DNA of 22,871 nucleotides from a plasmid. The translations under genes and the position numbers were made by a program. The stretch is taken from the sequence record NZ_AP024191.1; one strand, 5' to 3'. The notes beneath the pieces were generated by a model. That model was not told the origin of the DNA. It made no database searches and saw nothing but the letters and a program-made list of their open reading frames with translations. Positions 1-22,871 of the stretch are shown piece after piece. The first letter of the stretch is position 1. Every line of letters begins with the position of its first letter.

Positions 1-3000
1 TTGCGTTGGTTGGTCCAGTCGCCGTGGGTGTTTGGGGTGATGCTCTGCCAGTCGATGCTCGGAAGGGTGTCACCAGCAATGATGGCGAGTTTGTCTTCGC
101 GGCTCAGGTAGTCGCCGATGTCGCGGTAGAAGATCTCGCAGTCGCCGGTGTGGTCGGGGTTCTTGACGCCGATGAGGATGGCGACGGTGTTGCGGCTGCC
201 GGATCCGAAGATCTTGCCGCCTTCCTTGCGGGAGAGCTCGCCCGCGGTGCGTTGGTTGCCGCGGAGGTTGTAGACGTAGATGCGGGAGTATTCGTCGGCC
301 AGGGACAGGCGGATGCCGTCGGCGGTGTTGCCGTCGATCCAGCCACCATTACTTACGAAGGCGACGATGCCGGTGTCGCCGATGCGGTCGGTGGCCCACC
401 GGAAGGCGCGCAGGTAGGAGTCGTAGAGGCTGTTCTTGTTCGTCGCCGTGGACCGAGCGGCGTAGGTGGCGCCGATCCGGCCGTCCAGGGTCGGGTAGGA
501 GACGTTCGCGTTCAGGTCGTTCGCCGACTCCTGACCCTTCGAGTAGGGCGGGTTGCCGATGACGACGTTGATGGGGATCTGTTTCTGGCGGATGATGCGG
601 TCGTTGTTCTGCGGGAACATCACCGAGTCGAGGCTGTCGCCGTCTTCGGTGATCTGGAAGGTGTCGGCGAGCACGATCCCCTCGAACGGCGTGTACTCCG
701 CCGCACCTTCGCTGCCGATGATCGCGTGGTAGGTGGATTCGATGTTCACCGCGGCGATGTAGTAGGCGAGGAGCATGATCTCGTTGGCGTGCAGTTCTTC
801 GGTGTACTTGCGCGCCAGGTCTTCCGGGAAGATGTGTTCCTGCAGGAGCCGGGTGAGGAATGTGCCGGTGCCGGTGAACGGATCCAGGATGTGGACGCCT
901 TCACTGGTCAGGCCCCGACCGAACGCGTCCTTCGAGGCTTGGTCGGCGGCACGGAGGATGAAGTCGACGACCTCGACCGGGGTGTAGACGATCCCGAGGG
1001 CTTCGGACTGCTTGCGGAAGCCGAGGCGGAAGAACTTCTCGTAGAGTTCGGCGATCACCTTCTGCTTGCCGTCGGCGGTGGTCACCTCGGCGGCGCGGGT
1101 GCGGACGGAGGCGTAGAAGCCGTCGAGTTTCGCGGTTTCGGCCTCCAATCCGGAGTCGCCAAGGGTGCCGACCATCGCCTCCATCACCTTCGAGACGGGG
1201 TTGTGGGAGGCGAAGTCGTGTTCGGCGAACAGGGCGTCGAACACCGGCTTGGTGATCAGATGCTGCGAAAGCATGCTGATCGCGTCATCGCGGGTGATGG
1301 AGTCGTTGAGGTTATCCTTCAGGCCCTGATGGAACTTCTCGAACGCGGCCGCCACCTCGGGCGACGCCCCCGCCAGCAAGGCCTTGATGCGGGTGATCTG
1401 GGCGGCGGCGATGTCGGCGACGTCGGCGGCCCAGTCTTCCCAGTAGGCGCGGGTGCCGACCTTGTCGACGATCTTCGCGACGATCGCTTCCTGCCACTCC
1501 GACAGCGAGAACAACGCCATCTGCGTCGCCATCTGCCCACCATCGGTGCCGCCCTCGGTCACAGAACCGGACGCATCGGCAGTACTGGCGGCATCGGTGG
1601 ACGAACCGGCGCCGGCGACGGATTCGTTGTCGCTGCTGACCGGGCCGATGTGGTCGCCCATCAGCAGCGATGAGCCCTTGCCGGTTTTCTTCGCCTCGGT
1701 GGTGGTGGTGTTGAGGGCGATGGAGTTGACCATCGCGTTGAACCGGTCGTCGTGCGCGCGGAGCGCGTTGAGGACCTGCCAGACGACCTTGAAGCGGCGG
1801 TTGTCCGACAGCGCCTGTGACGGTGAGACGCCGGCGGGGACCGCGACGGGCAGGATGATGTAGCCGTAATCCTTGCTGTCGGCCTTGCGCATCACCCGAC
1901 CGACGGACTGGACGACGTCGACGACGGAGTTGCGGGGGTTGAGGAACATCACCGCATCCAGGGCTGGCACGTCCACACCTTCGGACAGGCAGCGGGCGTT
2001 GGTCAGGATCCGGCACTCCCCCTCCGGCACTGGGGCTTTCAGCCAGGAGAGTTCGGCGTTGCGCTGCAGGGCATTGAAGGTGCCGTCCACGTGATGCACC
2101 GAGCACGCCAGATCCCGGTTCGTCGCCGACACCGCATGCCCGTCGTTCTCGTTCTCCTCCAGCAAGTCCCGATACGCATCGACCACGGATGGGAAGACCT
2201 CGGCGACCTGCTTCGAGGCAGCGATGTCCTTCGCGAACACCACCGCCCGCTTCATCGGCGGCTCCCCCGGCGCGAAGCCGGTCCCGTCCGGGGAGCGGCC
2301 GGCACGCTTGGCCAGGCCGTTCCAGCAGCCGACGATCTTCGAGGCGTCGTCGAGCTTGAGTTCGGAGAACTCCCCGGCCAACTGCTGCTGCAGCGGGGAG
2401 GCGACCAGGTCCTCGTCGACGGTCAGCACGATCACCTTGTAGTCGGTGAGCAGGCCGCGTTCGACGGCCTCGCCGAACGACAGTCGGTGGAACTCGGGGC
2501 CGTAGACGGCCTCGTCGTCCATCGAGGCGAGCTCGGCCGAATGCTCGGCGGCCTGGTCCTTGACCTTGTCGTCGAACAACCGCGGCGTCGCCGTCATATA
2601 CAGCCGGCGTGACGCTTTGAGGAAGTCGCCGTCGTGGACACGGACGAAGTTCGACTCGTCCTCACCTGCCAAGGTGACGCCGGTGGTGCGGTGCGCCTCG
2701 TCGCAGATCACCAGGTCGAACGGGTCCACCCCCTGCTGCTGCGCGGCCGCGACGACGGGCAGGGACTGATAGGTGGTGAACACCACCGTCAGGCCCTTGG
2801 CGCGCTTGCGGTGGGCCATCTCCGCGGCGAGGGTGGCCGGGTCGGTGGTGACTGGGATTGCGACATCGACCGCGCCGATGTCCTCGGCGGCGCGGGAGAC
2901 CTTCGTGTCCGAACACACCGCGAACGCCCGCAGATCCAGCTGCGTCTGCGCGGTCCACTCCCGCAACGTCTGCGACAGCAACGAGATCGACGGCACCGCG

Positions 3001-3671
3001 AACAGAATCCGCGCTGACCCGCCCCGCTCGAGCGCGGTGCGTTCGGCGATCTTGAGCGCAGTGAACGTCTTGCCGGTGCCGCACGCCATGATCAGTTTGC
3101 CGCGGTCGTTGCCGGCCTCGAACCCGGAGAACACCGCGTCGATCGCTGCCTGCTGGTGCAGGCGCGGATCGTGCCGCTTCGCCTCCGAAAGCTCCACCTG
3201 CAGCTCACCGGCGGGCCACGCGATGTTCCAGTCGATCGGAGACTCGGCGATCTCCGCCAACCCGATCCGCTGCACCGGAATCGTCTGGTCCTCGAGCGCC
3301 GCCTCGGCGTTCTTTCCCCACCGATCGGTGGTCGAGATGATCACCCGGTTCGTGAACGGCTTCTTCCCCGACGCCGTGAAGAACGAATCGATATCGCCCT
3401 TGGCGAGCATGTGGGTCGGCTCGTAGAACTTGCACTGGATCGCCGTCAACGCCCCGGTATCCCGTTCCCGGGCGACCAGGTCGATCCCGGTATCCGGCTT
3501 CCCGTCGCGGCCCGGCCACTCCGTCCACCGCCACACCTGGTCGTACTGCTGCGACAGCAGCGGGTCGAGCTGGAAGTAGCGGACCATCAACTGCTCGAAC
3601 TTCGTGCCGCGTTCGGAGTTGCTGGGTGCCTGACGGAACGCCTCGATGACCTCGTGAACCGAACCCGACAC
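1..3671 (-). CDS. Type ISP-like single-polypeptide restriction-modification enzyme, N-terminal ~1223 aa (Mrr-like nuclease + SF2 DEAH helicase + gamma-class N6-adenine MTase). Open past the left window edge.
   Basis: Hand translation of the minus frame is continuous from GTG at 3671 to position 1. Nuclease: GIDLVARERDTG...AIQCKFY. Helicase: motif I MACGTGKTFT, Ia VPSISLLSQT, II LVICDEAH, III LYMTATPR, VI QSVGRVMR. MTase: GIVYTPVEVVDFI, ILDPFTGTGTFL, VVIGNPPY. The only minus-strand ORFs the track lists in 1-3671 are in the other two frames, so this frame has no internal stop there, and an edge-running ORF would not be listed. The same frame stays open upstream to a TGA at 4229..4227, overlapping the divergent gene, so GTG 3671 is the nearest plausible start. 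Confidence 0.85.
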   Translation of the reverse strand, partial: MSGSVHEVIEAFRQAPSNSERGTKFEQLMVRYFQLDPLLSQQYDQVWRWTEWPGRDGKPDTGIDLVARERDTGALTAIQCKFYEPTHMLAKGDIDSFFTASGKKPFTNRVIISTTDRWGKNAEAALEDQTIPVQRIGLAEIAESPIDWNIAWPAGELQVELSEAKRHDPRLHQQAAIDAVFSGFEAGNDRGKLIMACGTGKTFTALKIAERTALERGGSARILFAVPSISLLSQTLREWTAQTQLDLRAFAVCSDTKVSRAAEDIGAVDVAIPVTTDPATLAAEMAHRKRAKGLTVVFTTYQSLPVVAAAQQQGVDPFDLVICDEAHRTTGVTLAGEDESNFVRVHDGDFLKASRRLYMTATPRLFDDKVKDQAAEHSAELASMDDEAVYGPEFHRLSFGEAVERGLLTDYKVIVLTVDEDLVASPLQQQLAGEFSELKLDDASKIVGCWNGLAKRAGRSPDGTGFAPGEPPMKRAVVFAKDIAASKQVAEVFPSVVDAYRDLLEENENDGHAVSATNRDLACSVHHVDGTFNALQRNAELSWLKAPVPEGECRILTNARCLSEGVDVPALDAVMFLNPRNSVVDVVQSVGRVMRKADSKDYGYIILPVAVPAGVSPSQALSDNRRFKVVWQVLNALRAHDDRFNAMVNSIALNTTTTEAKKTGKGSSLLMGDHIGPVSSDNESVAGAGSSTDAASTADASGSVTEGGTDGGQMATQMALFSLSEWQEAIVAKIVDKVGTRAYWEDWAADVADIAAAQITRIKALLAGASPEVAAAFEKFHQGLKDNLNDSITRDDAISMLSQHLITKPVFDALFAEHDFASHNPVSKVMEAMVGTLGDSGLEAETAKLDGFYASVRTRAAEVTTADGKQKVIAELYEKFFRLGFRKQSEALGIVYTPVEVVDFILRAADQASKDAFGRGLTSEGVHILDPFTGTGTFLTRLLQEHIFPEDLARKYTEELHANEIMLLAYYIAAVNIESTYHAIIGSEGAAEYTPFEGIVLADTFQITEDGDSLDSVMFPQNNDRIIRQKQIPINVVIGNPPYSKGQESANDLNANVSYPTLDGRIGATYAARSTATNKNSLYDSYLRAFRWATDRIGDTGIVAFVSNGGWIDGNTADGIRLSLADEYSRIYVYNLRGNQRTAGELSRKEGGKIFGSGSRNTVAILIGVKNPDHTGDCEIFYRDIGDYLSREDKLAIIAGDTLPSIDWQSITPNTHGDWTNQR

Positions 3672-12111: not shown

Positions 12112-12183
12112 AGACCATCCGGGGTTCGGCGACCGGGCGCCGGGAAACCGGTTGCAGCAACTGCCACAATGGACGACACACGT

Positions 12184-12208
12184 CCCCGCCGTACCCCTTG
12201 CGGCGGGG
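12184..12208. terminator. Hairpin CCCCGCCG-(9 nt)-CGGCGGGG between the first and second genes of the plus-strand operon (attenuator/terminator candidate)
   Basis: 8-bp perfect GC stem seen in sequence. No U-tract. Confidence 0.35.
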
Positions 12209-12239
12209 ATGTCTCATCTCCCCGGCGCCCGCTGTTCCG

Positions 12240-12614
12240 ATGCAGCAGGGGCGGATCGAGTGGAAGGGGCCTGTGGTGGTCGTGACCCGCAAGGTGTTCC
12301 GGCAGAAGATGCTGCAGGCGGCGATCCTGGCCAAGATCGACCGCGAGCACCTGCGGATCGACACCGACCGGGTGCGCGAGAGCCTGCAGACGGTTCGCCG
12401 CAACGTCTCCCGCGACCGGTTGATGCTCTCCTACCTTGTCTGGTGGGAGCGGATCGTCGACGGCAACGACATCGAGGAACTACGTGCCGTGGTCGCCCGG
12501 GACGACGAGACCGGCAACGACATGCGCAACCTATCGCCGCTGTACGTGTTGTTCACCGAAGACGAGCGCCGGCAGTTCCTCGAGGCGTTCTGGGCCCAGT
12601 GGTCGCTGCAGTGA
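12240..12614 (+). CDS. Hypothetical protein, 124 aa
   Basis: High third-position GC and ordinary composition. Its stop overlaps the next gene's start (GTGA). Confidence 0.5.
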   Translation: MQQGRIEWKGPVVVVTRKVFRQKMLQAAILAKIDREHLRIDTDRVRESLQTVRRNVSRDRLMLSYLVWWERIVDGNDIEELRAVVARDDETGNDMRNLSPLYVLFTEDERRQFLEAFWAQWSLQ

Positions 12615-12883
12615 CTTCTCCAGGCTTCCGGTCAACGGAGCTCCGCCCCTACGCTGCGGCGGTGAACGCGGACCACAGCTACGACATCCTGACGATCGAA
12701 CTCGGTCCTTACGACGACCTTGCGACGTTGACGCGGGATCTGGCGAACCACGCTGGAACCGCAGCCACGCTCGCGTGGCAGGAAGAAGGCCGTGTCGTCG
12801 TATCGGTATCGCACTCCGTCACGGCCATCGATGGAAAGTTCTTCGGAACTGTCCTGCTGACGACTGACCTACAGTCCGCGTAG
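12611..12883 (+). CDS. Hypothetical protein, 90 aa, translationally coupled (GTGA) to the upstream gene
   Basis: C-terminal part of the track ORF 11858..12883, in the same frame. The upstream part is R/P-rich antisense-like. Confidence 0.45.
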   Translation: MTSPGFRSTELRPYAAAVNADHSYDILTIELGPYDDLATLTRDLANHAGTAATLAWQEEGRVVVSVSHSVTAIDGKFFGTVLLTTDLQSA

Positions 12884-12940
12884 CTGTTCCCAAGGCTCGG
12901 GACACTGCTCTGCACGTAGTCAGTTTGGAAGACTGATGCG

Positions 12941-12971
12941 CCACGAATGGCCGGTACAGCCGTACTTTGGG
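12941..12971. terminator. Hairpin GGCCGGTAC-(13 nt)-GTACCGGCC
   Basis: 9-bp perfect stem seen in sequence. Lies between the 90-aa gene and the 501-aa gene. Confidence 0.3.
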
Positions 12972-13001
12972 TACCGGCCGAGAGGGTTCTGCTGAACTCG
13001 T

Positions 13002-14507: not shown

Positions 14508-14629
14508 TGCGTGCAGGTCGGGCACATGGAGGGCCTGCGAAGCCGGTTCAGTGCAGGAACGCCCTGGGTAGTCGGGCGGATCACTGCTGCTCGATCGACA
14601 GATTCGTACTTTAGAAGTAGTTTTAATGT

Positions 14630-15106
14630 ATGAGTGTGGATGAGGTGACGTTCTCGGAGCTGCAGTTGCAGGGGAAGGCGACGGTCGAGCGGCTGCGTCG
14701 CTCACCGGCCCAGTCGCTGCTGGTGCGGCGTCGTGATGCCGAGGACCTGGTGCTGACCACGGCGGCGCGGGCGGAGCTCGAGCACACTGCGGCGTCGGTG
14801 ACGACACGGATGTTCGTGGCGTTGATGCAGCGCGATCCGCGGGCGCGGGAGTTGGTCACCGATGTGCTGCCCGAGGTGTTCCCGTGGGTAGCGTTCCTCT
14901 CCCGCGAAGAGGTACAGGAGTTCGTCGTCGAGCTGGTGGAGACCCTGCGGGCGGCGGAATCGCTCGACAACCCAGCTCCGGTGGTACAGGTGATCGAGGC
15001 CTGGCGGCACACCGCGGAGGTGCTGGCCGACCCCGAGCTGGCGGCGATCCTGGCGGCCGACACCGATGAGGACCTCGGCACCGTCCCCGCACCGGACGCT
15101 GCGTGA
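14630..15106 (+). CDS. Phd/YefM-like antitoxin with a long C-terminal extension (158 aa)
   Basis: The N-terminus VTFSELQ..ATVERL...LLVRRRDAEDLVLTTAARAELE fits the Phd/YefM pattern. Its stop overlaps the next gene's GTG (GTGA). Confidence 0.5.
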   Translation: MSVDEVTFSELQLQGKATVERLRRSPAQSLLVRRRDAEDLVLTTAARAELEHTAASVTTRMFVALMQRDPRARELVTDVLPEVFPWVAFLSREEVQEFVVELVETLRAAESLDNPAPVVQVIEAWRHTAEVLADPELAAILAADTDEDLGTVPAPDAA

Positions 15107-15459
15107 GCCCGAAACGCGGCGACCGGGTCGCCCCACCCGCGGACCCGGCCGGTGGGTGGGAGCTGCGGTTCGCCACCACCGACGCGGTCAAGGGCTGGGA
15201 CGCGCTGTGCCAGCAGGCGCCGGCGAACACTCTCACCGCCTGGAACGAACTGCGCTCACGCCCCGCCACCCCTGCTCCGACCCCGCGGCACCACCAGCTC
15301 AAAGGCTCCCTCGCCACCGCCACCCACGGAGGGACGGTAATGGAGCAGTGGCAATACGAAGTCACCGCCGGCGGGCGTGTTTGGTACCTGGTCGACACCA
15401 CCCGGCGCACCCTGTGGATCAAGGCCGCTGGGACCGGCCACCCCAAGGTCACCGACTGA
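15103..15459 (+). CDS. RelE/ParE-superfamily toxin
   Basis: HHQLKGSL...GGTVMEQWQYEVTAGGRVWYLVDTTRRTLWIKAAGTGHPK matches the RelE/ParE C-terminal core (LkG.....YRirvgdYRiiY.i..e...v.il.vghRk). Confidence 0.65.
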   Translation: MSPKRGDRVAPPADPAGGWELRFATTDAVKGWDALCQQAPANTLTAWNELRSRPATPAPTPRHHQLKGSLATATHGGTVMEQWQYEVTAGGRVWYLVDTTRRTLWIKAAGTGHPKVTD

Positions 15460-15491
15460 GTGGGGAGTGGCCGGTGTGCCGATCGACGTGA

Positions 15492-16403
15492 TTAGGCGGC
15501 TCGATCGCCTTCAGGCGGCGTCCACCGCGCACGAACGAAGGACCGAAACTGCGCTAGGAGGTCCTCGTCCTTGGCATGCGCCCGGTGGGTGACAGTGAGG
15601 TTGGTGGTCCGTCCTCGAGCGAGCCCAGGCTGGGCCTTGAGGATGTCTTTCGGTGTTGTGAGTAGCTTCCCCGCGCTGGATACCACTGCTTGCTCGAGTT
15701 GGGCGTAGGTCAGGACACTCGTCTCGTAGTAGCGGCCGGCGGACATCAGCAGCGTTGATCGTGCCCAATTGTGAGGAACGAGAACAAGCGGCTTACCTCC
15801 GGCCACTGGCAACTGGAGGGGCTTGCGGGTCCACTCCCGGTCTTGCGGATCCCACACCTGGCGGTGAAAGGTCTCTATGCGGTGGCCAGCAGCGCGGAAC
15901 TGCGGATACCTATCCACCATCTCGGAAGTGAACTCGGCCAACGGCTCGAAGATGATCCGCGTCGTGATGTCCGAGGTGATGTCGCGGTCGATGCCTTCGA
16001 CAAACAGCGGGAGGTCCTCGATCTGCCGGAGGACCCCTACACGGAGCAGCGCCTCCATATCTGTGTTCAGAGCGTTCCAGATCCAGGCACCGACGTCCTC
16101 GGCACCGCCGTGGCCACTGAAGCTGTTGGTTGCGAGGCCAAGTCGTGTTTCCCACGGTTCGACGAAACGTTGCAACAGCTCGAGGCCACGACGATGGTCA
16201 GACGGCCTGCTCGAAAGAGCGCAGCGGGTGATCTCGCGGAAGAACGTCTCGGTGCAGTCGTTCGCCAGAGTCGCGAACGGCTCGGGGGCCTGGTGAAGGC
16301 GGATGGCGTGGGGGTCGACGAACATCCGATTGTCGACATCGATATCGACGTCGAGGAACGGGACAGGACCGGGGATGCCGTAATAGTCAGTGATGGGAGC
16401 CAT
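15492..16403 (-). CDS. Hypothetical acidic protein, 303 aa
   Basis: Ordinary composition and no overlapping alternative. No family recognised. Confidence 0.5.
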   Translation of the reverse strand: MAPITDYYGIPGPVPFLDVDIDVDNRMFVDPHAIRLHQAPEPFATLANDCTETFFREITRCALSSRPSDHRRGLELLQRFVEPWETRLGLATNSFSGHGGAEDVGAWIWNALNTDMEALLRVGVLRQIEDLPLFVEGIDRDITSDITTRIIFEPLAEFTSEMVDRYPQFRAAGHRIETFHRQVWDPQDREWTRKPLQLPVAGGKPLVLVPHNWARSTLLMSAGRYYETSVLTYAQLEQAVVSSAGKLLTTPKDILKAQPGLARGRTTNLTVTHRAHAKDEDLLAQFRSFVRARWTPPEGDRAA

Positions 16404-16519
16404 GAGCTCCTCCTTTCAAAAGTCTTGGCCTGAAAGAGAAGAGAGCGGTTGCGCCCTAGCTGACTCCGCTACGCTGTAGACGACTCGTCCAAAGTCATCA
16501 CGGCGCTTCAGGCCGGGAT

Positions 16520-16548
16520 GATCTGTTTCGCTCAACCCGAAACAGATC
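16520..16548. terminator. Hairpin GATCTGTTTC-(loop)-GAAACAGATC followed by AGAATTTTG on the plus strand
   Basis: 10-bp perfect stem plus a T-run, seen in sequence. Confidence 0.4.
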
Positions 16549-16559
16549 AGAATTTTGAG

Positions 16560-16597
16560 CATGTCCGGGCGGCATCCTTAGATGCCGCCCGGACATG
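16560..16597. terminator. Strong hairpin CATGTCCGGGCGGCATC-CTTA-GATGCCGCCCGGACATG (17-bp perfect stem), directly 3' of the 51-aa minus-strand gene
   Basis: Seen in sequence. It separates the end of the sigma/XRE/ImmA operon from the 303-aa gene's upstream region. Confidence 0.55.
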
Positions 16598-16598
16598 A

Positions 16599-16754
16599 TT
16601 ACTTCTCGTTGCGGACGCCCTTGTGCTGGTTAGGGCTTCCGTTGAGGATGCGGCCGGTTGCAGTGTCGCGCTTGAACCAGGTCGTGCCGACCTTGAACTC
16701 GCTGCGGCCCTTGACTGCTCCAACCCGATGCCCTCGTCCGGTGTTCTTCGCCAT
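16599..16754 (-). CDS. Small basic protein, 51 aa, with a strong SD (AGGAGA)
   Basis: Hand translation MAKNTGRGHRVGAVKGRSEFKVGTTWFKRDTATGRILNGSPNQHKGVRNEK*. Below the track's length cutoff. The hairpin follows it immediately. Confidence 0.5.
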   Translation of the reverse strand: MAKNTGRGHRVGAVKGRSEFKVGTTWFKRDTATGRILNGSPNQHKGVRNEK

Positions 16755-16871
16755 GGTGGTTTATCTCCTTCGACTGGCACCTGTTCCTGATCGATCGGCG
16801 ATCGACCCAGGCGGGCTCTCACTACGTAGTCGAGGCAGCGGACAAAAGAGTTAGGTACCGGGACAGTCCCG

Positions 16872-17891
16872 TCAGCCGCGGCACTCCTCGCATAGTCCGG
16901 CCATGAGGAGATGTGGTTGGAAACGTAGATAGCAACCGTTGCAGGTTTGCTCCCGCAATGCGGCTCGCTCACAACGACAGTGCTTGCACTGTGGGCAGAA
17001 CGGTTGCTCACATGTAGGACAGGGATATCCGCGTGCGATCTGGGACTTGCCGCAGCAGTAGATTTCGGTCGCGGGTCGTTCATCGAACTCCCGGGGAGGA
17101 TCGACGTGGAGGCGCTCTGCGTTCCACAAGTCGATGTCGGAGAACACCGCCATGACACGTTTGCCACCGTCATGGACGGCGTCTACGTAGAACTCCGCCG
17201 GCGCATCCCAGCGGTTCCTCCAGATGACCCTCTTCGTAACCGACCCACCGGGGGCAAGGTTCAACAGCGGATGACCGTCGGGTACCAGCTGATTGCGCCA
17301 CGGGAACACTGTGGGCCATCCTCGATCGAGGTCTGGCCTCACACTGGAGTGAGACACCCGAGCGGTGGTTTGATCGACGACCAGGACGGCACCGAGGCTC
17401 GGTAGTCGTTTCGCCAATGCAATCGCGCAGACTGGCCGGCTGGCATGGCTTACGTCGAACAGTTCAAGTACATGATGAGCCCGGATCGGCCCCTTACCGA
17501 TGACCGTATCGACGACACCATCAGGAAGCAGGAGACGCTGGGCGATGTGGTCGCAGACTGTCTCCAACAGGCGTGGTGGGTCGTCTTGATCTGCAATCCA
17601 GTCGTAGAGTTCCTCCGCCTGCTCGACGAGCCAATGCCCCAGCTCGTGTCCCAATGTGAAGTTTTCTCGTCGGCTGTGGGGGGTAGGGGCGTAGAGGATG
17701 ACTCCATCTTGAAGGAAGGAGATTCCGTCACAAGCGCCGCCGTCGTTGCGGTTCTCGGCCAAATGCTCGACGCACTCAACCTCGATTCCAAGCTCGGTGC
17801 GAAGAGTTTGGATCGGGCTCAACGTGAAGTTCTCACGCGCCATCTGGGGCAAGATCTTCAAAGCTGTGTCAACGCACCAGCCGAGGTCCAC
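16872..17891 (-). CDS. ImmA/IrrE-family Zn-metallopeptidase with a C-terminal Cys-rich (multi-CxxC) domain
   Basis: RRENFTLGHELGHWL has the HEXXH motif in the ImmA/IrrE context. The C-terminus is CCGKSQIARGYPCPTCEQPFCPQCKHCRCERAALREQTCNGCY...CEECRG. The start GTG sits 1 nt after the XRE gene's TAA. Confidence 0.75.
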   Translation of the reverse strand: MDLGWCVDTALKILPQMARENFTLSPIQTLRTELGIEVECVEHLAENRNDGGACDGISFLQDGVILYAPTPHSRRENFTLGHELGHWLVEQAEELYDWIADQDDPPRLLETVCDHIAQRLLLPDGVVDTVIGKGPIRAHHVLELFDVSHASRPVCAIALAKRLPSLGAVLVVDQTTARVSHSSVRPDLDRGWPTVFPWRNQLVPDGHPLLNLAPGGSVTKRVIWRNRWDAPAEFYVDAVHDGGKRVMAVFSDIDLWNAERLHVDPPREFDERPATEIYCCGKSQIARGYPCPTCEQPFCPQCKHCRCERAALREQTCNGCYLRFQPHLLMAGLCEECRG

Positions 17892-18554
17892 TTATGGTCC
17901 CTTCGTTCTTTCCACAGTTTCTACCAGCGCTTCGAGTGACCGCAGCATCTGGCTTGAGTCGGGGTGATCTCCGCGATGCGCAGTCGCCAGCAGTCGTGAT
18001 TCCAGAGCCGAAGCAGCCAATTCCCGTGACATGTCTTGGATTCGCGCCCATCGGTCCACGAGCTTTTGGAAGCCCGGAGTCTTCCTTACGCTGGCAAGAG
18101 CCTCGTCCTCAGTGCGTACAGCTGTGCTTGTGGTCAGGAGCTCGGCGACGGTTCTGGTTTCCTCTGCGATTGCTGCGATTAGTGCGGGTGGCACGTTTGA
18201 TGTCGAACGATTCTCCCACCGGAATACTTCTCCGGCCTGTACTTCCCACCCCCGCGCTGTCAGTCGTTCCGCTAGCTGGCTCGCAGATAGACCGGCATTT
18301 TTGCGGGCCCGCTTCAATGCGTTGCTGTCAAGCGCGCGCTCAGGATCAGGGACAAGGCCGAGCATCGCTGCCACGGGGTCGGATGACAGAGGCGGAGCAC
18401 CTTGTGCCTTCTCTCGGAGAAGGTCTGCTATGTCGGTTAGGGCTGTTATGTACTCCCCTTCGTCGGCTGCTTCGATCTGGAGTGGATCCATCGCTTGGCC
18501 TGCTCGAATCTCATGCAGGGAGGCGAGCAGCTCTTCCCGTTCCTTCTCCTTCAT
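17892..18554 (-). CDS. XRE-family HTH protein (220 aa), partner of the ImmA-like peptidase
   Basis: LKRARKNAGLSASQLAERLTARGWEVQAGEVFRWEN is an HTH. Its ATG overlaps the sigma gene's TGA (ATGA). Confidence 0.7.
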   Translation of the reverse strand: MKEKEREELLASLHEIRAGQAMDPLQIEAADEGEYITALTDIADLLREKAQGAPPLSSDPVAAMLGLVPDPERALDSNALKRARKNAGLSASQLAERLTARGWEVQAGEVFRWENRSTSNVPPALIAAIAEETRTVAELLTTSTAVRTEDEALASVRKTPGFQKLVDRWARIQDMSRELAASALESRLLATAHRGDHPDSSQMLRSLEALVETVERTKGP

Positions 18555-19084
18555 CCTTTTACCTCCTCCCAGCCCATCGCTTCTCGTAACTTGGCAAGAG
18601 CTTCAAGCTTCATCTGGCTGACTCGTCCCGGTGTAACGCCGAGTTCGGCAGCTACTTCATTTCGTGGTCGCTCAAGCGCGACGAACTCCCACGCAACCTT
18701 TCGGTGTCGCTCGTCCAAGGAAGGCAGGGCCTCGTTGATGCGCTTCGCTAACTGTTGGCGCTCGAGTGCGGACGCAACCTCGTCGGACAGGTCGGTGGAG
18801 TCTGCGTAGTCGTGTTCTTCGGATAGCTCAGGGCCGGAATTTTTAACGGCCGCAGACTTGAGGTGATCCAACGCCTTCCGCTGGACGACCCGTATTAAGA
18901 AGGCTTCCCAGTTCTGCACCGTACTTTTAGGCGGGGAGGACATGATGGACACGATCGCGTCTTGGACAACGTCGTTTGCGTGTCCTTCTCGCCCATAGCC
19001 ACGAAGCTTTGACGCTGCGACACGATGCAGGGCGTCACGGTGCTTCGCGTAGAGAGCAGCGAGGTCGGGCGGTCTTTCTGTCAT
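18551..19084 (-). CDS. ECF-type sigma-70 family sigma factor (177 aa from ATG 19084; track ORF extends to 19276)
   Basis: Region-2-like LYAKHRDALHRVAASKLRGYGREGHANDVVQDAIVSIM. Region-4-like LPSLDERHRKVAWEFVALERPRNEVAAELGVTPGRVSQMKLEALAKLREAM. Confidence 0.75.
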   Translation of the reverse strand: MTERPPDLAALYAKHRDALHRVAASKLRGYGREGHANDVVQDAIVSIMSSPPKSTVQNWEAFLIRVVQRKALDHLKSAAVKNSGPELSEEHDYADSTDLSDEVASALERQQLAKRINEALPSLDERHRKVAWEFVALERPRNEVAAELGVTPGRVSQMKLEALAKLREAMGWEEVKG

Positions 19085-19357
19085 CCCCACTACCGCCTCA
19101 TGCCACTCGCTGTTGAGCGCATCAGTGACGCTCCTCCCCGTACCTTGGCCAACATCATCACCCCTGCAACCGTGTCCTGATCCGTAGTCGAGATAGCAGT
19201 CATCAGAGTTAGCACCAACCCCCGGTCTCTCCGGGCAGTCTGTCTTGCCCTGAAAACAACCCCTTCCGGGCGCCACTGATCTCGCCGGGTCGGTGCTCGA
19301 CCTCGTGCTGGCTGGTATCGAAAACCGGTCTCCACATCATCTGGCATCGATCGTTTG

Positions 19358-20320
19358 TCAGGTGTGTTTGGTGCACAACAGATTCGGAGTGGTGCACCAA
19401 CCCTGGTCTTCGAGCCAGCGGTGGACCGCGGAGGGTAGGCCGCTTGTGGGTACGGCGCCGATGACCAGTGGCCCTTCGCCGCAGAGACCGCAACTGATCG
19501 CTATGACCTGCTGGTGGGGTTGGCATCGGACGCAACGCCGATGCTCGCGGACCTGGCCGTCGGAGTCGACGTGCAACCAGACCATGTCGAGGTCGTCGAG
19601 GTGCGGGCCCGCCTCCTGTCGTGTCGACGGCCGGTAACCGCAGGTCGGGCACGTCAATCGGTCCTCACCCGGACCAGGAGTGGAAACGGCTGCCGGGACA
19701 GCACTGTCGGCCTCGATCGGGGCCGCGGGTGAGACGGTCATCAACTCTGTCGGCCTCGGTGGCAGGTGCCGGTAGAGGGTGGAGCGGGTCAGTCCGGTCT
19801 TGGCGACGATCTCGGAGACGGTGGCGCCAGTGTCTCGTAGTTGGATGGCGTGGGCGATCTGGGATTCGGTGACCACCGACGGGCGGCCGGTGCGCCGGCC
19901 CTTCGCGGTCGCGACCTGGCGGGCGTGGGCGGCGCGTTCGAGGGTGTAGGTGCGTTCCATCTGTGCGAACAGTGCGAGTAGTACGACGGCCAGCTGTGCC
20001 ATCGGGTCGTCCGGGTTCGAGGAGTCGATGCGGATCGGATCTGCCAGGTTCCGCACTCCGATGCCACGCTCGCGTAGGTCGTGGATCAGGTTCAGGGTGT
20101 CGCGCACGTTCCGGCCGAGCCGGTCGAGGGTGTGCGTGACGATGACGTCGCCGTCGCGGGCGTACTCGAGCAGTGCGGTCAGTCCGGGGCGGTCGGTGGT
20201 GGCCCCGGACTTCTTGTCGACGTAGATGTTTGCCGGGTCGATCCCGGCCGTGGTGAGGGCGTCGATCTGCCGGTCGAGGTCCTGTTTGGTCGTCGACACC
20301 CGCGCGTATCCCAGCTCCAC
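19358..20320 (-). CDS. Serine recombinase (resolvase/invertase family) with a roughly 120-aa Cys-rich C-terminal extension. An alternative GTG start is at 20365.
   Basis: GYARVSTTKQDLDRQ has the catalytic Ser context. DVIVTHTLDRLGRN follows. HTH: TVSEIVAKTGLTRSTLYRHL. Tail: CPTCG...CVRCQ...CGLCG. Confidence 0.8.
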   Translation of the reverse strand: MELGYARVSTTKQDLDRQIDALTTAGIDPANIYVDKKSGATTDRPGLTALLEYARDGDVIVTHTLDRLGRNVRDTLNLIHDLRERGIGVRNLADPIRIDSSNPDDPMAQLAVVLLALFAQMERTYTLERAAHARQVATAKGRRTGRPSVVTESQIAHAIQLRDTGATVSEIVAKTGLTRSTLYRHLPPRPTELMTVSPAAPIEADSAVPAAVSTPGPGEDRLTCPTCGYRPSTRQEAGPHLDDLDMVWLHVDSDGQVREHRRCVRCQPHQQVIAISCGLCGEGPLVIGAVPTSGLPSAVHRWLEDQGWCTTPNLLCTKHT

Positions 20321-20365
20321 GCCGGGAGCGTATCGAAAGTTGCCCCCGTAGCAAGGTTTCGACAC

Positions 20366-20470
20366 GACGTTTCGGAATTAACTTGTGAGACGTTGCGAGC
20401 TGGGGTGATCCGGTCTGGCGTCTGCCGGACCAGGACCGTCCCACTACCAAGGAAATGAGACGGCTCTCGC
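20366..20470. promoter_or_regulatory. Region upstream of the resolvase gene; a res site is only the default expectation from position
   Basis: Position only. Contains GTTTCGACACGACGTTTCGG and imperfect ACGTTTC...GAGACGT symmetry. No confident subsite assignment. Confidence 0.2.
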
Positions 20471-21478
20471 TCAATCAGTTCGGATCGGCATGACCACGCA
20501 GTCTTCAATAACTACATCCGGCGTTTGGTCGTCCGGCAGTTCGAGTCGGGGCGAGTTGGTGACGCCGAAAGGAACATGCACGCATGGGGCCACCGTGGTT
20601 GCGGGGGCAAGATGCTTGGTTTGGTCATCGAAGAAGATGTGCGGTTTGAGGATTTCGAGGACTTTCGTTTTGGACACTCCACCGAGGAAGAAGGCATCGT
20701 TTACGGTCACGCCCCAGCTCTTGAGGCTTCGGACGGCCCGCTCATGGGATGGAGCATTTCGTGCGGTGACGATCGCGACGTGAACTCGAATCCGGTAGCT
20801 CTTGTCGGCCAAGCGGCGCTTCTCTTCAACCTTCTGGATGCGGTTGACGGCTGCGAGTAGGTCGCGCAGAGGGCCTGGTCTCAGGGGCTCAAGAACCTTC
20901 TTCACCTCGTGGCTGTGGAAGTCATCCAAACCGCTTTGCTGCATCACACGTTCGGACTCGTCAGACGCAAGCACCCCATCGAAGTCGAAGGCAATTCGCA
21001 GATCGGCGCTGTCATCCGTGTCTTCCACTGCGTTGCCGAGGACAAGTCCGGCCGGATGGCCCGCCGCGACGGCTTGCCGGACGTCCTTGTCGTTTCCCGA
21101 AAGAAACAAAGACATGTTGAACGCTGGCATGAACTTGTGTGGAGAGCGGCCCTGGCGGAAGACAGCTCGCGTGATGGGAAGGCCGTGATACTGGATTGAG
21201 CGCATCACGCGCAGACCGGTGTCAGGGTCGTTGCGAGACAGAACAATGACCTCAACCAAGGGAGAACCTATGTCTTCCGTGAGGTCGTTGAGTGACAACA
21301 ACCGCTTGATGAAGGCGAAGGCCACACCCGGACGAAGCGGGTCATCAAGATGATCCTCCTGGAACCTTCGATACCCTTCTTCCCCCTCAGCGTTGAACAC
21401 GTCATCGGACTCCGCCAGGTCGAATAGTGCGCTCGATGCAACACCGATGACTAACTGATCGTCCAGACTGACTGCCAT
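20471..21478 (-). CDS. 5'-nucleotidase-family (PF06189-like, HAD-superfamily) protein
   Basis: The N-terminal LVIGVASSALFDL, VEVIVLSRNDPDTGLRVMRSI and GLPITRAVFRQGRSPHKFMPAFNMSLFLS blocks match my recollection of the bacterial 5'-nucleotidase family (LVIAISSRALFDL...VEVILLSRNS.DTGLR...GL.ITRAAF.GG..P..YL.AF...LFLS). Confidence 0.6.
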   Translation of the reverse strand: MAVSLDDQLVIGVASSALFDLAESDDVFNAEGEEGYRRFQEDHLDDPLRPGVAFAFIKRLLSLNDLTEDIGSPLVEVIVLSRNDPDTGLRVMRSIQYHGLPITRAVFRQGRSPHKFMPAFNMSLFLSGNDKDVRQAVAAGHPAGLVLGNAVEDTDDSADLRIAFDFDGVLASDESERVMQQSGLDDFHSHEVKKVLEPLRPGPLRDLLAAVNRIQKVEEKRRLADKSYRIRVHVAIVTARNAPSHERAVRSLKSWGVTVNDAFFLGGVSKTKVLEILKPHIFFDDQTKHLAPATTVAPCVHVPFGVTNSPRLELPDDQTPDVVIEDCVVMPIRTD

Positions 21479-21500
21479 ACCTCATCCCCCTGTCTCCGAT

Positions 21501-21546
21501 GTCATCCATGCCGGGGAGTGGAGAAGGTTCATCCGGCTGGATGACT
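21501..21546. terminator. Imperfect hairpin (GTCATCCAtGCCGG ... CCGGCtGGATGAC) between the restriction-gene stop and the nucleotidase start. The nucleotidase SD GGAGACAGGGGG follows.
   Basis: Seen in sequence. 13-bp stem with one mismatch. Confidence 0.4.
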
Positions 21547-21568
21547 CCGCAGTAGGTGCTGATTGCTC

Positions 21569-22871
21569 CTACAGGCTTTCGACGACCTTCATCGTCTCGA
21601 CCGCCACTGTCGTCACCCGACGGATCAGGTCCACGATGTAGGTGGGGTCGTCGTGCTCGTCGCACCAGTCGTTGGGGTCGTTGACGATCCCGGATGCCTT
21701 GTCGGTCTTGACCTGGTAGCGGTCGATGATCCACGCCAACGCTGACCGGGAACCGAGCATGTACCGTTCGGCAGCTTCCGGGATACCGGTGATGGTGACC
21801 TTCGGGTTGTAGACGATGGTGGTGCGGTCGTCGACGTTCTTGCCGGTGTCTGGGTCCTTCTGCTTGCCCCACTTGAGCTTCGACACCCGCCACGTCTCAC
21901 GATCCTCGGCGGACGCCCCCTTCGCGATCTGCACGTCCAGCTCGTACGGCTGCACGGTTTCGTAGCTCACGTGCAGATCTGCGAGGCGGCGGCCGGCGTC
22001 GGCAAGCTGTTCGAAGCGTTCGCGCGATGCTGGGGCGGGGATGTGCGGGAGCATCTTCTTCAGGTCCGCCGCGTACGTCTCCCTATATGCGGGGTCGTGG
22101 AGCAGCCCGTACACGTAGTAGAAGATGTCGTCCTTGGTGACCTGGGCGCCCACGGTGTAGCGGTAGAGGTCGAGGATGCCATCGGTGATGTTGTCGACCG
22201 GTCGGTAGCCGTACTCGTCGACTTCGGCCGTCTCCGCAGTTACGAAGTCTAGCTCACCATCAGCGGATTCGGCCTTGGCGTATGTCCAGCGGGTGAAGAA
22301 CTGGCCACTGCCGGATCCCCAGAAGGATAGGTCGGGGATCGCGTCGGTCAACAGGGCGGAGAACGGCTTGTCAGATCCGGTACCGACCACGTAGAAGCCG
22401 ATGTTCTTGTGGTGCGGGGTCGGGAACATCGACGGGAGCTGTGACCGCTCATGGTTGAGGTGCTTGTCGAAGTAGGTGTGCTGCTTACTGAACGGCCTGT
22501 AGAGGCCGACGACGTGTCCCGCCGACCGGGGTGAGATCTCTGCTCGGCGGGCGAGGTGGGCGCGCAGGCTTCGAGACCATTTGATGTAGTCCGCTTGTGC
22601 GGCCTGGGGGTTCGCGGTGAGGTAGGCGGTGACGGCGGCTTCGTTCGGTCGGGTGATCCCGGTGTCGCGGCAGTATTGAGCGAACGGGGTGTGCTGGTCG
22701 TTGTAGTTGCCGATGAGACGTTGCACATTCGCGGTCAGGTCTGCGCGCGAGTAGTTGTACACCCACGTGTCACGGTTCGTTTGCAGCCCCGCGGAGAAGG
22801 TAGAGAAGACGGTGACCTGCCCAGGCGTGAGGCTTTTCTCCCCGATGGCAGGCCATGCCAGGTATTCGTCG
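21569..22871 (-). CDS. C-terminal ~434 aa of a large helicase-methylase-type restriction enzyme (Type ISP C-terminal/specificity-like region). Open upstream past the right window edge. Probably the 3' part of the gene at 1..3671 if the molecule is circular.
   Basis: The track ORF 21569..22762 begins with GTG, but the same frame has no stop up to 22871 (hand translation ...DEYLAWPAIGEKSLTPGQVTVFSTFSAGLQTNRDTW-VYNYSR...). The C-terminal block YMLGSRSALAWIIDRYQVKTDKASGIVNDPNDW is, from memory, typical of the C-termini of helicase-MTase restriction fusions. Confidence 0.7.
   Translation of the reverse strand, partial: DEYLAWPAIGEKSLTPGQVTVFSTFSAGLQTNRDTWVYNYSRADLTANVQRLIGNYNDQHTPFAQYCRDTGITRPNEAAVTAYLTANPQAAQADYIKWSRSLRAHLARRAEISPRSAGHVVGLYRPFSKQHTYFDKHLNHERSQLPSMFPTPHHKNIGFYVVGTGSDKPFSALLTDAIPDLSFWGSGSGQFFTRWTYAKAESADGELDFVTAETAEVDEYGYRPVDNITDGILDLYRYTVGAQVTKDDIFYYVYGLLHDPAYRETYAADLKKMLPHIPAPASRERFEQLADAGRRLADLHVSYETVQPYELDVQIAKGASAEDRETWRVSKLKWGKQKDPDTGKNVDDRTTIVYNPKVTITGIPEAAERYMLGSRSALAWIIDRYQVKTDKASGIVNDPNDWCDEHDDPTYIVDLIRRVTTVAVETMKVVESL

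What the first reader, a model, noticed from the sequence alone, without database searches (positions are those of the whole stretch)
20471..21546. 5'-nucleotidase-family gene immediately downstream of the restriction gene, separated by a hairpin
A PF06189-like 5'-nucleotidase sits 90 bp after the restriction-gene stop on the same strand, with an imperfect hairpin between them and its own SD. That would fit attenuated read-through co-expression. A nucleotidase linked to a restriction enzyme could act in nucleotide-pool manipulation, as in known nucleotide-depleting defences, or in processing modified nucleotides. This is speculative. It could equally be an unrelated cargo gene.
Basis: inference. 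Interest (0 to 1): 0.6.

Follow-up and report, generated by a model that had tools for sequence, protein, structure and literature searches.

The report
Plasmid 5'-nucleotidase beside restriction enzyme
The gene is a genuine, catalytically intact 5'-nucleotidase carried as mobile cargo just after a large restriction enzyme on a small Prescottella equi plasmid; its close relatives repeatedly sit next to restriction systems, but most of the wider family does not, and no anti-phage role has been tested.

Summary
The gene is real. It lies at window 20471-21478 on the minus strand (335 aa), 90 nt after the stop of a 1653-aa Type ISP restriction-modification gene. It matches Pfam PF06189 end to end (421 bits) and PADLOC candidate PDC-S08 (458 bits). 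All four HAD catalytic motifs are present.

The window is a complete circular P. equi plasmid, and NCBI already names this protein 5'-nucleotidase. The predicted fold is a tandem of a degenerate HAD repeat and a catalytic HAD repeat.

The hairpin exists but is marginal (z = -1.8). It has no U-tract and is absent from sister ISP-nucleotidase junctions, so the attenuator idea is not supported.

The linkage is real but facultative:
- The window's monophyletic clade always sits in defence islands (Type ISP, IIG and IV enzymes, GmrSD, AbiU).
- Three ISP lineages, only about 50% identical to each other, each co-occur with a nucleotidase.
- A distant E. coli clade sits in hsdRMS islands.
- 14 related plasmids carry the ISP gene without the nucleotidase.
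- Neighbours in 80 species-level loci are mostly ordinary genes.

Most likely it is a separately mobile enzyme acting on the (d)NMP pool that travels with defence cargo. Function is untested. It is a new member of a known kind, of moderate interest.

The parts
20471..21478 (-). 5'-nucleotidase gene (335 aa), PF06189 / PADLOC PDC-S08. N-terminal degenerate HAD repeat is about residues 9-147. Catalytic HAD repeat is about residues 160-301, with D165-x-D167, T238, K270 and D284-D285. Poorly conserved C-terminal tail is residues 310-335.
   Evidence: The exact protein is named '5'-nucleotidase (plasmid) [Prescottella equi]' in NCBI.
21479..21568 (-). 90-nt spacer between the ISP stop codon and the nucleotidase ATG. 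No promoter-like or terminator-like site was found on this strand.
21501..21545 (-). Imperfect hairpin (13-bp stem, one bulged A, 18-nt loop). Marginal stability excess, no U-tract, not conserved in relatives.
21480..21490 (-). Shine-Dalgarno-like purine run (GGGGGA..GAGG) before the ATG. This part of the spacer is conserved in the nearest relatives.
21569..22871 (-). 3' part of the Type ISP restriction-modification gene (Type_ISP_C target-recognition domain). It continues from window position 1 across the origin of the circular record.
1..3659 (-). 5' part of the same Type ISP gene (Mrr-like nuclease, SF2 helicase, coupler, N6-adenine methyltransferase). The full protein is 1653 aa. It aligns end to end with the Nocardia farcinica pNF2 homologue (82-83% identical by tblastn/blastp).
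19358..20365 (-). Serine recombinase (resolvase), directly downstream. Homology to sister P. equi plasmids runs up to window 20452, 18 bp short of the nucleotidase stop codon. This marks the edge of the variable cargo region.

Best explanation
The gene encodes an active, Mg-dependent HAD-superfamily nucleoside 5'-monophosphate phosphatase of the cN-IA type (PF06189).

Inferred chemistry, from the established HAD mechanism: Asp165 is the nucleophile that forms the aspartyl-phosphate. Asp167 is the general acid/base. Thr238 and Lys270 hold the phosphate. Asp284 and Asp285 hold Mg2+.

The protein is an internal duplication. The N-terminal repeat has lost the catalytic Asp residues but is as conserved as the catalytic repeat. 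It most likely acts as a cap or an allosteric nucleotide-binding module (inference).

The gene is an autonomous single-gene unit that moves on its own. In this plasmid it is part of a roughly 10-kb defence cargo and lies at the 3' flank of a self-sufficient Type ISP restriction-modification gene. It is probably expressed both by read-through and from its own ribosome-binding site.

Its most likely role is to convert (deoxy)nucleoside monophosphates to nucleosides. This would deny an infecting phage the dNMPs released from degraded host or restricted DNA. That would be a nucleotide-pool defence or a defence-supporting function, not a physical partnership with the restriction enzyme.

Shown here: family membership, intact catalytic motifs, the fold, the arrangement, and the recurrent but facultative linkage to restriction systems. 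Inferred: the substrate, the regulation and any effect on phage.
For: Identity and activity:
- PF06189 full-length at 421 bits; PDC-S08 at 458 bits.
- Catalytic residues are invariant in 10 diverse homologues.
- They are 95-100% conserved in 113 cluster representatives that are 35-57% identical to the query.
- AF2 model: pLDDT 88.8, pTM 0.86, two Rossmannoid repeats.
- The two halves are homologous to each other (E = 1e-6).
- The nearest solved fold is the AphA class B nucleotidase/phosphatase (Foldseek probability 1.0).
- N-half conservation is 0.526 against 0.513 for the C-half.

Autonomy:
- No conserved neighbour in 88 loci, and neighbour strands are mixed.
- In the close clade the gene's GC3 is 0.54-0.67, against 0.74-0.89 for its neighbours.

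Defence cargo:
- The window clade is monophyletic and all of its contexts are defence islands.
- Neighbours include Type ISP, Type IIG plus HKD-SNF2, Type IV mREase, GmrSD/HEC-05, AbiU-like AIPR, PDC-S53 and PDC-M02A.
- Three ISP lineages, 49-50% identical to each other, each co-occur with the gene in different arrangements: the window/L091/L103 group, L088 and L106.
- ISP and nucleotidase co-diverge between the window and L091 (76% and 83% identity).
- The E. coli homologue (42% identity) is rare, in 72 of 5426 genomes. In 5 of 5 inspected cases it lies in hsdRMS - variable defence cassette - nucleotidase - integrase - tRNA islands.
- The plasmid also carries a Fic gene matching PDC-S04 and a CapP-like regulator.
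- Sister plasmids hold TIR and PIN cargo in the same slot.

Precedent:
- Phage T5 Dmp, a dNMP 5'-monophosphatase, remodels the dAMP pool during infection.
- '5'-nucleotidase' is listed among genes associated with KomBC modules (bioRxiv 10.1101/2024.12.20.629578).
- Kongming-like komABC genes lie next to homologues in L005 and L018.
Against: - No experiment exists for any bacterial PF06189 protein. It is absent from a 2021 review of microbial 5'-nucleotidases, PMC8475336.
- PDC-S08 appears once in the searched literature, with a 50/50 split between phage-resistant and phage-susceptible strains.
- Family-wide, immediate neighbours are mostly ordinary genes.
- Only 5 of 80 loci have a homologue of my restriction/defence mini-library within 10 kb.
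- PADLOC hits among 143 immediate neighbours are only weakly more frequent than among 110 control genes about 8 kb away.
- In Lentzea and one Streptomyces subclade the gene is syntenic and vertically inherited, as a housekeeping gene would be.
- A constitutive dNMP drain would be costly to the host, and no sensor is demonstrated.
Confidence: 0.5

Rival explanations
1. Ordinary metabolic cargo. The enzyme is a nucleotide-salvage or pool-homeostasis nucleotidase with no role in phage defence. Its position beside the restriction gene only reflects a promiscuous cargo slot next to the plasmid resolvase and the general mobility of the gene.
For: - In 80 species-level loci the neighbours are small multidrug-resistance (SMR) pumps, ceramidase, chitinase, transhydrogenase, LysR regulators, GNAT acetyltransferases, siderophore-interacting proteins and acetyl-CoA carboxylase.
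- The gene is syntenic and vertically inherited in Lentzea and a Streptomyces subclade.
- Some plasmid copies sit by fosA10/IS elements or ABC transporters.
- The ISP lineage is found without it in 14 plasmids.
- The only characterised family members (vertebrate cN-IA) are metabolic enzymes (PMC5098729 Table 1; own knowledge).
Against: - The window clade is monophyletic and every context in it is a defence island with different systems and junctions.
- Three divergent ISP lineages co-occur with the gene.
- An unrelated E. coli clade is confined to hsdRMS/integrase islands in 1.3% of genomes.
- An independent pipeline (PADLOC) lists the family as a defence candidate.
Confidence: 0.3
2. Dedicated accessory of ATP-dependent, m6A-type restriction-modification enzymes. 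The nucleotidase would be co-expressed with the Type ISP (or Type I / IIG) enzyme and work with it. It might clear modified dNMPs (such as N6-methyl-dAMP, or phage hydroxymethyl-dNMP precursors) so that they are not recycled into DNA. Or it might be switched on by the ADP produced by the translocating enzyme.
For: - Same strand, with short spacers (49-90 bp), after the ISP gene in the window, L091 and L103.
- ISP and nucleotidase co-diverge.
- The neighbours are repeatedly helicase-type enzymes carrying Eco57I/MmeI- or N6_Mtase-type (N6-adenine) methyltransferase domains: ISP, IIG plus SNF2, Type I.
- m6-dAMP released from degraded chromosomes is a real infection signal in another HAD-containing system (PMC12871103).
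- Vertebrate cN-IA is ADP-activated (own knowledge).
Against: - The nearest ISP homologue (pNF2, 83%) and 13 other listed plasmids lack the gene.
- R. erythropolis-type plasmids keep the nucleotidase beside only a dead remnant of the ISP 3' end.
- Gene order and distance vary: the nucleotidase is upstream of ISP in L088 and 5.4 kb away in L106.
- In E. coli a variable cassette separates it from hsdS, and the same island exists without it (H114-H117).
- Type ISP enzymes are known single-polypeptide systems (own knowledge).
Confidence: 0.12
3. The spacer hairpin is a regulatory attenuator or partial terminator that sets the ratio of restriction enzyme to nucleotidase.
For: A 13-bp imperfect stem lies between the two genes. 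No separate promoter-like site was found.
Against: - z = -1.81, and 10 of 200 shuffles fold as well.
- No U-tract, and not called by the terminator scan.
- Absent from the L091 and L103 ISP-nucleotidase spacers, which are shorter (76 and 49 bp).
Confidence: 0.08
4. Signal-handling enzyme. The nucleotidase makes, trims or removes a nucleotide-derived immune signal or its precursor (as in Kongming-type dITP signalling), or protects the plasmid from such host systems, rather than depleting bulk pools.
For: - komA/komB/komC-like genes lie next to homologues in pZMOB01 and a Pseudomonas MAG (metagenome-assembled genome).
- The Kongming preprint lists 5'-nucleotidase among KomBC-associated genes, and shows T5 Dmp blocking the pathway by removing dAMP.
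Against: No komBC, SIR2 or cyclase genes were found in the window. Only 2 of about 105 loci show this linkage.
Confidence: 0.05

Closest known systems
Vertebrate cytosolic 5'-nucleotidase IA (NT5C1A, cN-IA), the type member of Pfam PF06189
   Same: Same Pfam family across the whole length. HAD-related fold and EC 3.1.3.5 assignment (PMC5098729 Table 1).
   Different: This one is bacterial, plasmid-borne and biochemically untested. Substrate preference (AMP and dNMPs) and ADP activation are known only for the animal enzymes (own knowledge). No family member has a solved structure.
PADLOC 'phage defence candidate' PDC-S08
   Same: Near full-length match to the model (458 bits). Single-gene unit. 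This clade is embedded in defence islands.
   Different: PDC-S08 is only a candidate. No anti-phage test was found, and there is one literature mention with no effect. Most homologues sampled here are not in defence contexts.
Phage T5 Dmp (deoxyribonucleotide 5'-monophosphatase)
   Same: Same reaction class (dNMP to deoxynucleoside), and it acts within phage-host conflict by reshaping the dNMP pool.
   Different: It is encoded by the phage and acts against the host's defence. Homology to PF06189 was not tested here. PF06189 genes are almost absent from phage records (4 of 50,697).
HAD phosphatase defence effectors: Chp (CARF-HAD, type III CRISPR) and the HAD subunit of PUA-Cal-HAD
   Same: HAD-superfamily phosphatases that defend by destroying nucleotides (PMC12715507, PMC12871103).
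   Different: They act on (d)NTPs or IMP, and are switched on by cA4 through CARF or by m6-dAMP through a PUA-calcineurin scaffold. This protein has no CARF, transmembrane or PUA partner and belongs to another HAD family. Its predicted substrates are monophosphates.
AphA class B acid phosphatase / nucleotidase (PDB 1z5g)
   Same: Best solved structural match to one repeat of the model (Foldseek E = 6e-4, probability 1.0). It is also the HHpred proxy quoted for PF06189 in PMC5098729.
   Different: About 15% identity, a single domain, and periplasmic (own knowledge). The tandem arrangement of a degenerate and a catalytic repeat has no solved counterpart.
Type ISP restriction-modification enzymes (LlaGI / LlaBIII type), the neighbouring gene
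   Same: The neighbour has every ISP domain in the canonical order, and PADLOC calls it REase_MTase_IIG at 494 bits.
   Different: These are single-polypeptide systems with no known accessory gene (own knowledge). The nucleotidase is present next to only some of them.

Membership tests
Pfam PF06189 (cN-IA-type 5'-nucleotidase) | Full-length profile match above the gathering score | tested here: met
   421.5 bits against a cut-off of 28.2; residues 1-308 on profile positions 1-301 of 302.
Pfam PF06189 (cN-IA-type 5'-nucleotidase) | HAD motif I, DxDx(T/V): nucleophile and acid/base Asp | tested here: met
   F-D165-F-D167-G-V. Invariant in A1 and 100% conserved in 113 cluster representatives.
Pfam PF06189 (cN-IA-type 5'-nucleotidase) | HAD motifs II (S/T), III (K) and IV (DD) | tested here: met
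   T238 is 98% conserved, K270 96%, D284 95% and D285 96%.
Pfam PF06189 (cN-IA-type 5'-nucleotidase) | HAD Rossmannoid fold | tested here: met
   AF2 model with pLDDT 88.8. Best PDB matches are the HAD-superfamily phosphatases AphA, 2p11 and 4rn3.
Pfam PF06189 (cN-IA-type 5'-nucleotidase) | 5'-nucleotidase activity, substrate range, allosteric activation by ADP | not testable with these tools
   This needs purified protein. No bacterial member is characterised in PMC8475336.
PADLOC PDC-S08 (candidate single-gene defence) | Match to the PDC-S08 model | tested here: met
   458.2 bits; residues 1-309 on model positions 15-317 of 323.
PADLOC PDC-S08 (candidate single-gene defence) | Embedded among defence genes | tested here: inconclusive
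   Met for the window clade and the E. coli clade. Not met for most of the 80 species-level loci.
PADLOC PDC-S08 (candidate single-gene defence) | Protects against phage | not testable with these tools
   No experimental report was found.
Obligate accessory / operon partner of Type ISP restriction enzymes | Conserved adjacency across homologues of the ISP gene | tested here: not met
   14 listed plasmids match the ISP 3' region, yet none of them is among the nucleotidase tblastn hits. pNF2 (83% ISP identity) has a tyrosine recombinase downstream instead.
Obligate accessory / operon partner of Type ISP restriction enzymes | Co-inheritance of the pair where both are present | tested here: met
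   Window against L091: ISP 76%, nucleotidase 83%. L103: ISP C-terminus 86%, nucleotidase 91%. Two further ISP lineages lie near a nucleotidase (L088, L106).
Intrinsic terminator / attenuator in the spacer | GC-rich stem followed by a U-tract | tested here: not met
   The stem is followed by AUCGGAGACAGG. The scan finds no site on this strand.
Intrinsic terminator / attenuator in the spacer | Stability beyond chance and conservation in relatives | tested here: not met
   z = -1.81 with 10 of 200 shuffles as stable. Absent from the L091 and L103 spacers.
Known nucleotide-depleting defence effectors (Chp, PUA-Cal-HAD) | Sequence membership, or the associated sensor (CARF, PUA-calcineurin) | tested here: not met
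   The only PADLOC hit is PDC-S08 and the only Pfam hit is PF06189. No such partner genes are in the window.
Kongming (KomABC)-associated nucleotidase | Adjacent komB (HAM1) and komC (SIR2) genes | tested here: not met
   Absent from the window. Present only beside the homologues in L005 and L018.

The most novel reading that the evidence does not exclude
PF06189 nucleotidases of the island-resident clades may form a new class of single-gene, restriction-linked nucleotide-pool defence. The conserved degenerate HAD repeat would act as a nucleotide sensor (for example for ADP made by translocating Type I/ISP/IIG enzymes, or for modified dNMPs such as m6-dAMP). It would switch on the catalytic repeat. 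The active enzyme would then drain dNMPs, or selectively destroy modified dNMPs, so that phage cannot recycle host or restricted DNA or build modification-protected genomes.
Probability: 0.15. Interest if true: 0.7.

Novelty: new member of a known kind. Interest (0 to 1): 0.4.

Why it matters
If the island-resident clades of this family really act in defence, they would add a monophosphate-level nucleotidase to the known nucleotide-depleting immune enzymes, which act on NTPs, dNTPs or NAD+. They would also offer a simple, testable case of a pseudo-enzyme repeat serving as a sensor. The repeated pairing with ATP-dependent restriction enzymes whose methyltransferase domains are of the N6-adenine type (Type ISP, Type I, Type IIG) would point to a functional link between restriction and nucleotide recycling. 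If the gene is only metabolic cargo, the result is still useful. A PADLOC candidate family (PDC-S08) would then mix housekeeping and island-resident clades, so hits to it should not be counted as defence systems without checking clade and context.

Tried and rejected
- **Solved structures by sequence:** nothing relevant.
- **NCBIfam:** no model hit.
- **Universally conserved partner gene:** all-against-all clustering of flanking ORFs in 88 loci found none. The largest cluster was generic ABC ATPases, and the rest were genus-level synteny blocks.
- **Domain fusions as functional hints:** longer family members carry no informative extra domains. The giant ones (VTC, Dus and Maf domains) look like chimeric eukaryotic gene models.
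- **Phage origin or anti-defence gene:** only 4 weak or fragmentary phage records out of 50,697.
- **Literature:** 'PF06189' and 'PDC-S08' each occur in one paper, and neither tests a bacterial member. A search for cN-IA biochemistry gave nothing usable. One search failed on syntax, and the search for cN-IA with bacterial and phage terms found no papers.
- **DefensePredictor, mobile-integron and P. aeruginosa hotspot papers:** none mentions this family.
- **Promoter in the spacer:** the sigma-70 consensus scan found none, but that scan is not suited to actinobacterial promoters.
- **Family-wide enrichment test:** PADLOC on 143 immediate neighbours against 110 control genes about 8 kb away gave only a weak difference. 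Several 'DpdF/PsyrT/BrxH' hits came from what look like housekeeping helicases in both sets.
Full report
**1. What is there**

The ORF at 20471-21478 lies on the minus strand, starts with ATG and encodes 335 aa. It matches Pfam PF06189 (5'-nucleotidase) over essentially its whole length, at 421.5 bits against a cut-off of 28.2. It also matches PADLOC's candidate model PDC-S08 at 458 bits. NCBIfam has no model for it.

The gene upstream on the same strand is a Type ISP restriction-modification enzyme. Its C-terminal target-recognition domain lies at 21569-22870. Its Mrr-like nuclease, SF2 helicase, coupler and N6-adenine methyltransferase domains lie at about 1-3659. The reading frame is continuous across the window's ends, with 1843 codons and no internal stop. 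The window is therefore a closed circle.

The exact nucleotidase sequence is on record as '5'-nucleotidase (plasmid) [Prescottella equi]' on a contig of 22,871 bp, which is the window's own length. The window is thus a complete small plasmid, with a replicase, ParA and a resolvase. The gene already carries this name in public annotation.

**2. The spacer**

The ISP stop codon is at 21571-21569 and the nucleotidase ATG at 21478, so the spacer is exactly 90 nt. A purine-rich Shine-Dalgarno-like run precedes the ATG.

It spans 21501-21545 and has a 13-bp stem, one bulged A and an 18-nt loop. Several results argue against a regulatory role:
- It folds only marginally better than shuffled sequence (-34.1 against -27.95 +/- 3.39 kcal/mol, z = -1.81, 10 of 200 shuffles as stable).
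- It has no U-tract and is not picked up as terminator-like.
- It is missing from the equivalent ISP-nucleotidase spacers of relatives, 76 bp in L091 and 49 bp in L103. Only the ribosome-binding region is conserved there.

Read-through co-expression is plausible. A conserved attenuator is not supported.

**3. The protein**

All four HAD motifs are present: D165-x-D167, T238, K270 and D284-D285. They are invariant in ten diverse homologues. They are 95-100% conserved in 113 cluster representatives that are only 35-57% identical to the query.

AlphaFold2 gives a confident model (pLDDT 88.8, pTM 0.86) with two Rossmannoid repeats, at residues 9-147 and 160-301. The two halves are detectably homologous (BLASTP E = 1e-6, 25% identity). 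The N-terminal repeat has lost both the DxD motif (A14, S16) and the DD motif (S127, G128). Even so, it is as conserved as the catalytic half (0.526 against 0.513 mean top-residue frequency). That pattern fits a cap or an allosteric nucleotide site, though this is inference.

No family member has a solved structure. The closest solved fold, covering one repeat, is the AphA class B phosphatase/nucleotidase. This agrees with the HHpred proxy quoted in PMC5098729. A 2021 review of microbial 5'-nucleotidases does not mention this type at all.

**4. Is the link to the restriction gene meaningful?**

Evidence for a link:
- The nearest relatives repeat the arrangement. L103 (91% identical nucleotidase) has an ISP C-terminus, then 49 bp, then the nucleotidase.
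- L091, on a 168-kb chromosomal contig of a metagenome-assembled genome (MAG), has ISP, then 76 bp, then the nucleotidase. ISP is 76% and the nucleotidase 83% identical to the window's, so the pair has been inherited together.
- R. erythropolis-type plasmids keep the nucleotidase next to only a dead remnant of the ISP 3' end.
- Two further ISP lineages, about 50% identical to the window's and to each other, also lie near a nucleotidase in other arrangements. In L088 the nucleotidase lies directly upstream of ISP. In L106 it lies 5.4 kb downstream.
- Other members of the same clade sit directly beside other defence genes. L089 has a Type IIG enzyme plus an HKD-SNF2 helicase upstream and a GmrSD (HEC-05) downstream. 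L095 has a Type IIG enzyme plus a DUF4365 protein upstream and an AbiU-like AIPR protein downstream. L096 has a convergent Type IV enzyme. Elsewhere the neighbours are PDC-S53 or PDC-M02A.
- In a neighbour-joining tree this clade is monophyletic and every member has a defence context.
- A very distant clade in E. coli (42% identity) occurs in 72 of 5426 complete genomes. In all five contexts inspected it lies in tRNA-linked, integrase-bounded islands of the form hsdR-hsdM-hsdS, a variable cassette, the nucleotidase, sometimes a phosphorothioate-dependent nuclease, then the integrase. The variable cassette is Dsr1, SIR2, AAA plus HNH, a helicase plus a hypothetical gene, or two hypothetical genes.
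- At least 29 of the 60 best-matching E. coli places list the nucleotidase together with hsdRMS.

Evidence against an obligate link:
- Fourteen listed Rhodococcus or Nocardia plasmids match the ISP 3' region but are not among the nucleotidase hits. They include pNF2, whose ISP is 83% identical and is followed by a recombinase.
- E. coli islands of the same type exist without the nucleotidase (H114-H117).
- Clustering of flanking ORFs found no conserved partner gene in 88 loci.
- In 80 species-representative loci (58-69% identity) the neighbours are mostly ordinary metabolic, transport or regulatory genes on either strand.
- Only 5 of those 80 loci have a homologue of my restriction/defence mini-library within 10 kb.
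- PADLOC hits among immediate neighbours are barely more frequent than among control genes about 8 kb away.
- In Lentzea and one Streptomyces subclade the gene is syntenic, as expected for vertical inheritance.

In the window clade the gene's GC3 (0.54-0.67) is consistently below that of its neighbours (0.74-0.89). This marks it as a unit that moves separately.

**5. Plasmid context**

Sister P. equi plasmids share the backbone from 7412 to 20452. That homology ends 18 bp short of the nucleotidase stop codon. In place of the nucleotidase and ISP they carry TIR-domain and HTH/PIN genes. The roughly 10-kb variable region of this plasmid holds the nucleotidase, the ISP gene, a CoiA-nuclease-like gene and a Fic gene that matches PDC-S04. 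Elsewhere on the plasmid there is a CapP-like M78 peptidase with an adjoining HTH gene. The plasmid family therefore looks like a carrier of exchangeable defence cargo, and the nucleotidase is part of that cargo.

**6. Mechanism**

Shown: an intact HAD phosphatase of the cN-IA family with a conserved degenerate repeat. It is probably co-transcribed with a self-sufficient restriction enzyme but not dependent on it.

Inferred: it hydrolyses (deoxy)nucleoside 5'-monophosphates. In the defence setting this would drain the dNMPs that phages recover from degraded DNA. The degenerate repeat may provide regulation.

Precedents are indirect:
- T5 Dmp changes the dAMP pool enough to block Kongming signalling, and '5'-nucleotidase' is listed among KomBC-associated genes.
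- komABC-like genes flank homologues in two loci.
- HAD phosphatases are effectors in Chp and in PUA-Cal-HAD.

I put this reading at 0.5, plain metabolic cargo at 0.3, and a dedicated restriction accessory at 0.12.

**7. Verdict**

The gene identification is correct and already public. The hairpin is unremarkable. The restriction linkage is real in two separate clades but facultative, and the wider family is mostly found in ordinary contexts. This is a new member of a known, untested candidate family. It is moderately interesting, mainly as a clean experimental target.

Noticed in passing
window 1-22871 (whole): The window is a complete circular plasmid of Prescottella equi. The Type ISP gene is join(21569..22871, 1..3659) on the minus strand, so it is split by the record's coordinate origin and looks truncated at both ends of the window.
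   Followed up: yes
window 5356-6000 (+): A Fic/DOC-family gene (Pfam Fic, 52 bits) matches the PADLOC candidate PDC-S04 at 210 bits. This is a second untested defence candidate in the same cargo region.
   Followed up: partly
window 16872-19276 (-): Three abutting genes lie here: sigma-70-like (18551-19276), HTH (17892-18554) and M78 peptidase-like (16872-17891). The peptidase hits PADLOC CapP at 46.7 bits. Together they resemble a CapH/CapP-type damage-responsive regulator pair, downstream of the resolvase on the same strand as the ISP and nucleotidase genes.
   Followed up: partly
window 3838-5028 (+): A 396-aa protein with a CoiA nuclease-like domain is transcribed divergently from the ISP gene. 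It has no PADLOC hit and its function is unknown.
   Followed up: no
window 20452/20453; L102 (CP094640.1): Sister P. equi plasmids share window 7412-20452 at about 87% identity. They carry TIR-domain and HTH/PIN genes where this plasmid has the nucleotidase and ISP. This looks like an exchangeable defence-cargo slot beside the resolvase.
   Followed up: partly
L002:8699-8919, L094:7696-7920, L097:4547-4672: Dead remnants of the Type ISP C-terminus (aa about 1577-1653) lie just upstream of the nucleotidase in R. erythropolis-type plasmids. The restriction gene was lost and the nucleotidase was kept.
   Followed up: yes
L008, L107-L110 (E. coli islands at tRNA-Leu / tRNA-Sec): A distant homologue (42% identity, in 72 of 5426 genomes) occupies a fixed position in islands of the form hsdRMS - variable cassette (Dsr1, SIR2, AAA plus HNH, and others) - nucleotidase - (phosphorothioate-dependent nuclease) - integrase.
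   Followed up: partly
L005:8106-10462 (pZMOB01); L018:11820-14184: Kongming-like komA (adenosine deaminase), komB (HAM1) and komC (SIR2) genes lie convergent to the nucleotidase homologue in a Zymomonas plasmid and in a Pseudomonas MAG (metagenome-assembled genome). In pZMOB01 the nucleotidase may be interrupted: my ORF call splits it and the record lists no CDS there.
   Followed up: partly
window 20471-21478 (protein residues 9-147 against 160-301): The protein is an internal duplication of a HAD unit. The N-terminal copy has lost all catalytic Asp residues but is as conserved as the active copy across the family.
   Followed up: yes
window 20471-21478 against its flanks; L089, L091, L095, L002: The nucleotidase genes of this clade have GC3 of 0.54-0.67, while their neighbours have 0.74-0.89. 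The gene seems to move independently of whatever it sits next to.
   Followed up: partly
L009-L088 flanks: PADLOC's DpdF, PsyrT and BrxH models gave very strong hits (E = 1e-290) to what look like ordinary large helicases, both in neighbour genes and in control genes. Bulk PADLOC HMM hits taken without system logic overcount defence.
   Followed up: no
window 15492-16403 (-): A 303-aa ORF with no Pfam domain has a weak match to the PADLOC candidate PDC-M36A (35.8 bits). It is the last gene of the same-strand run ISP - nucleotidase - resolvase - sigma-like - HTH - M78.
   Followed up: no
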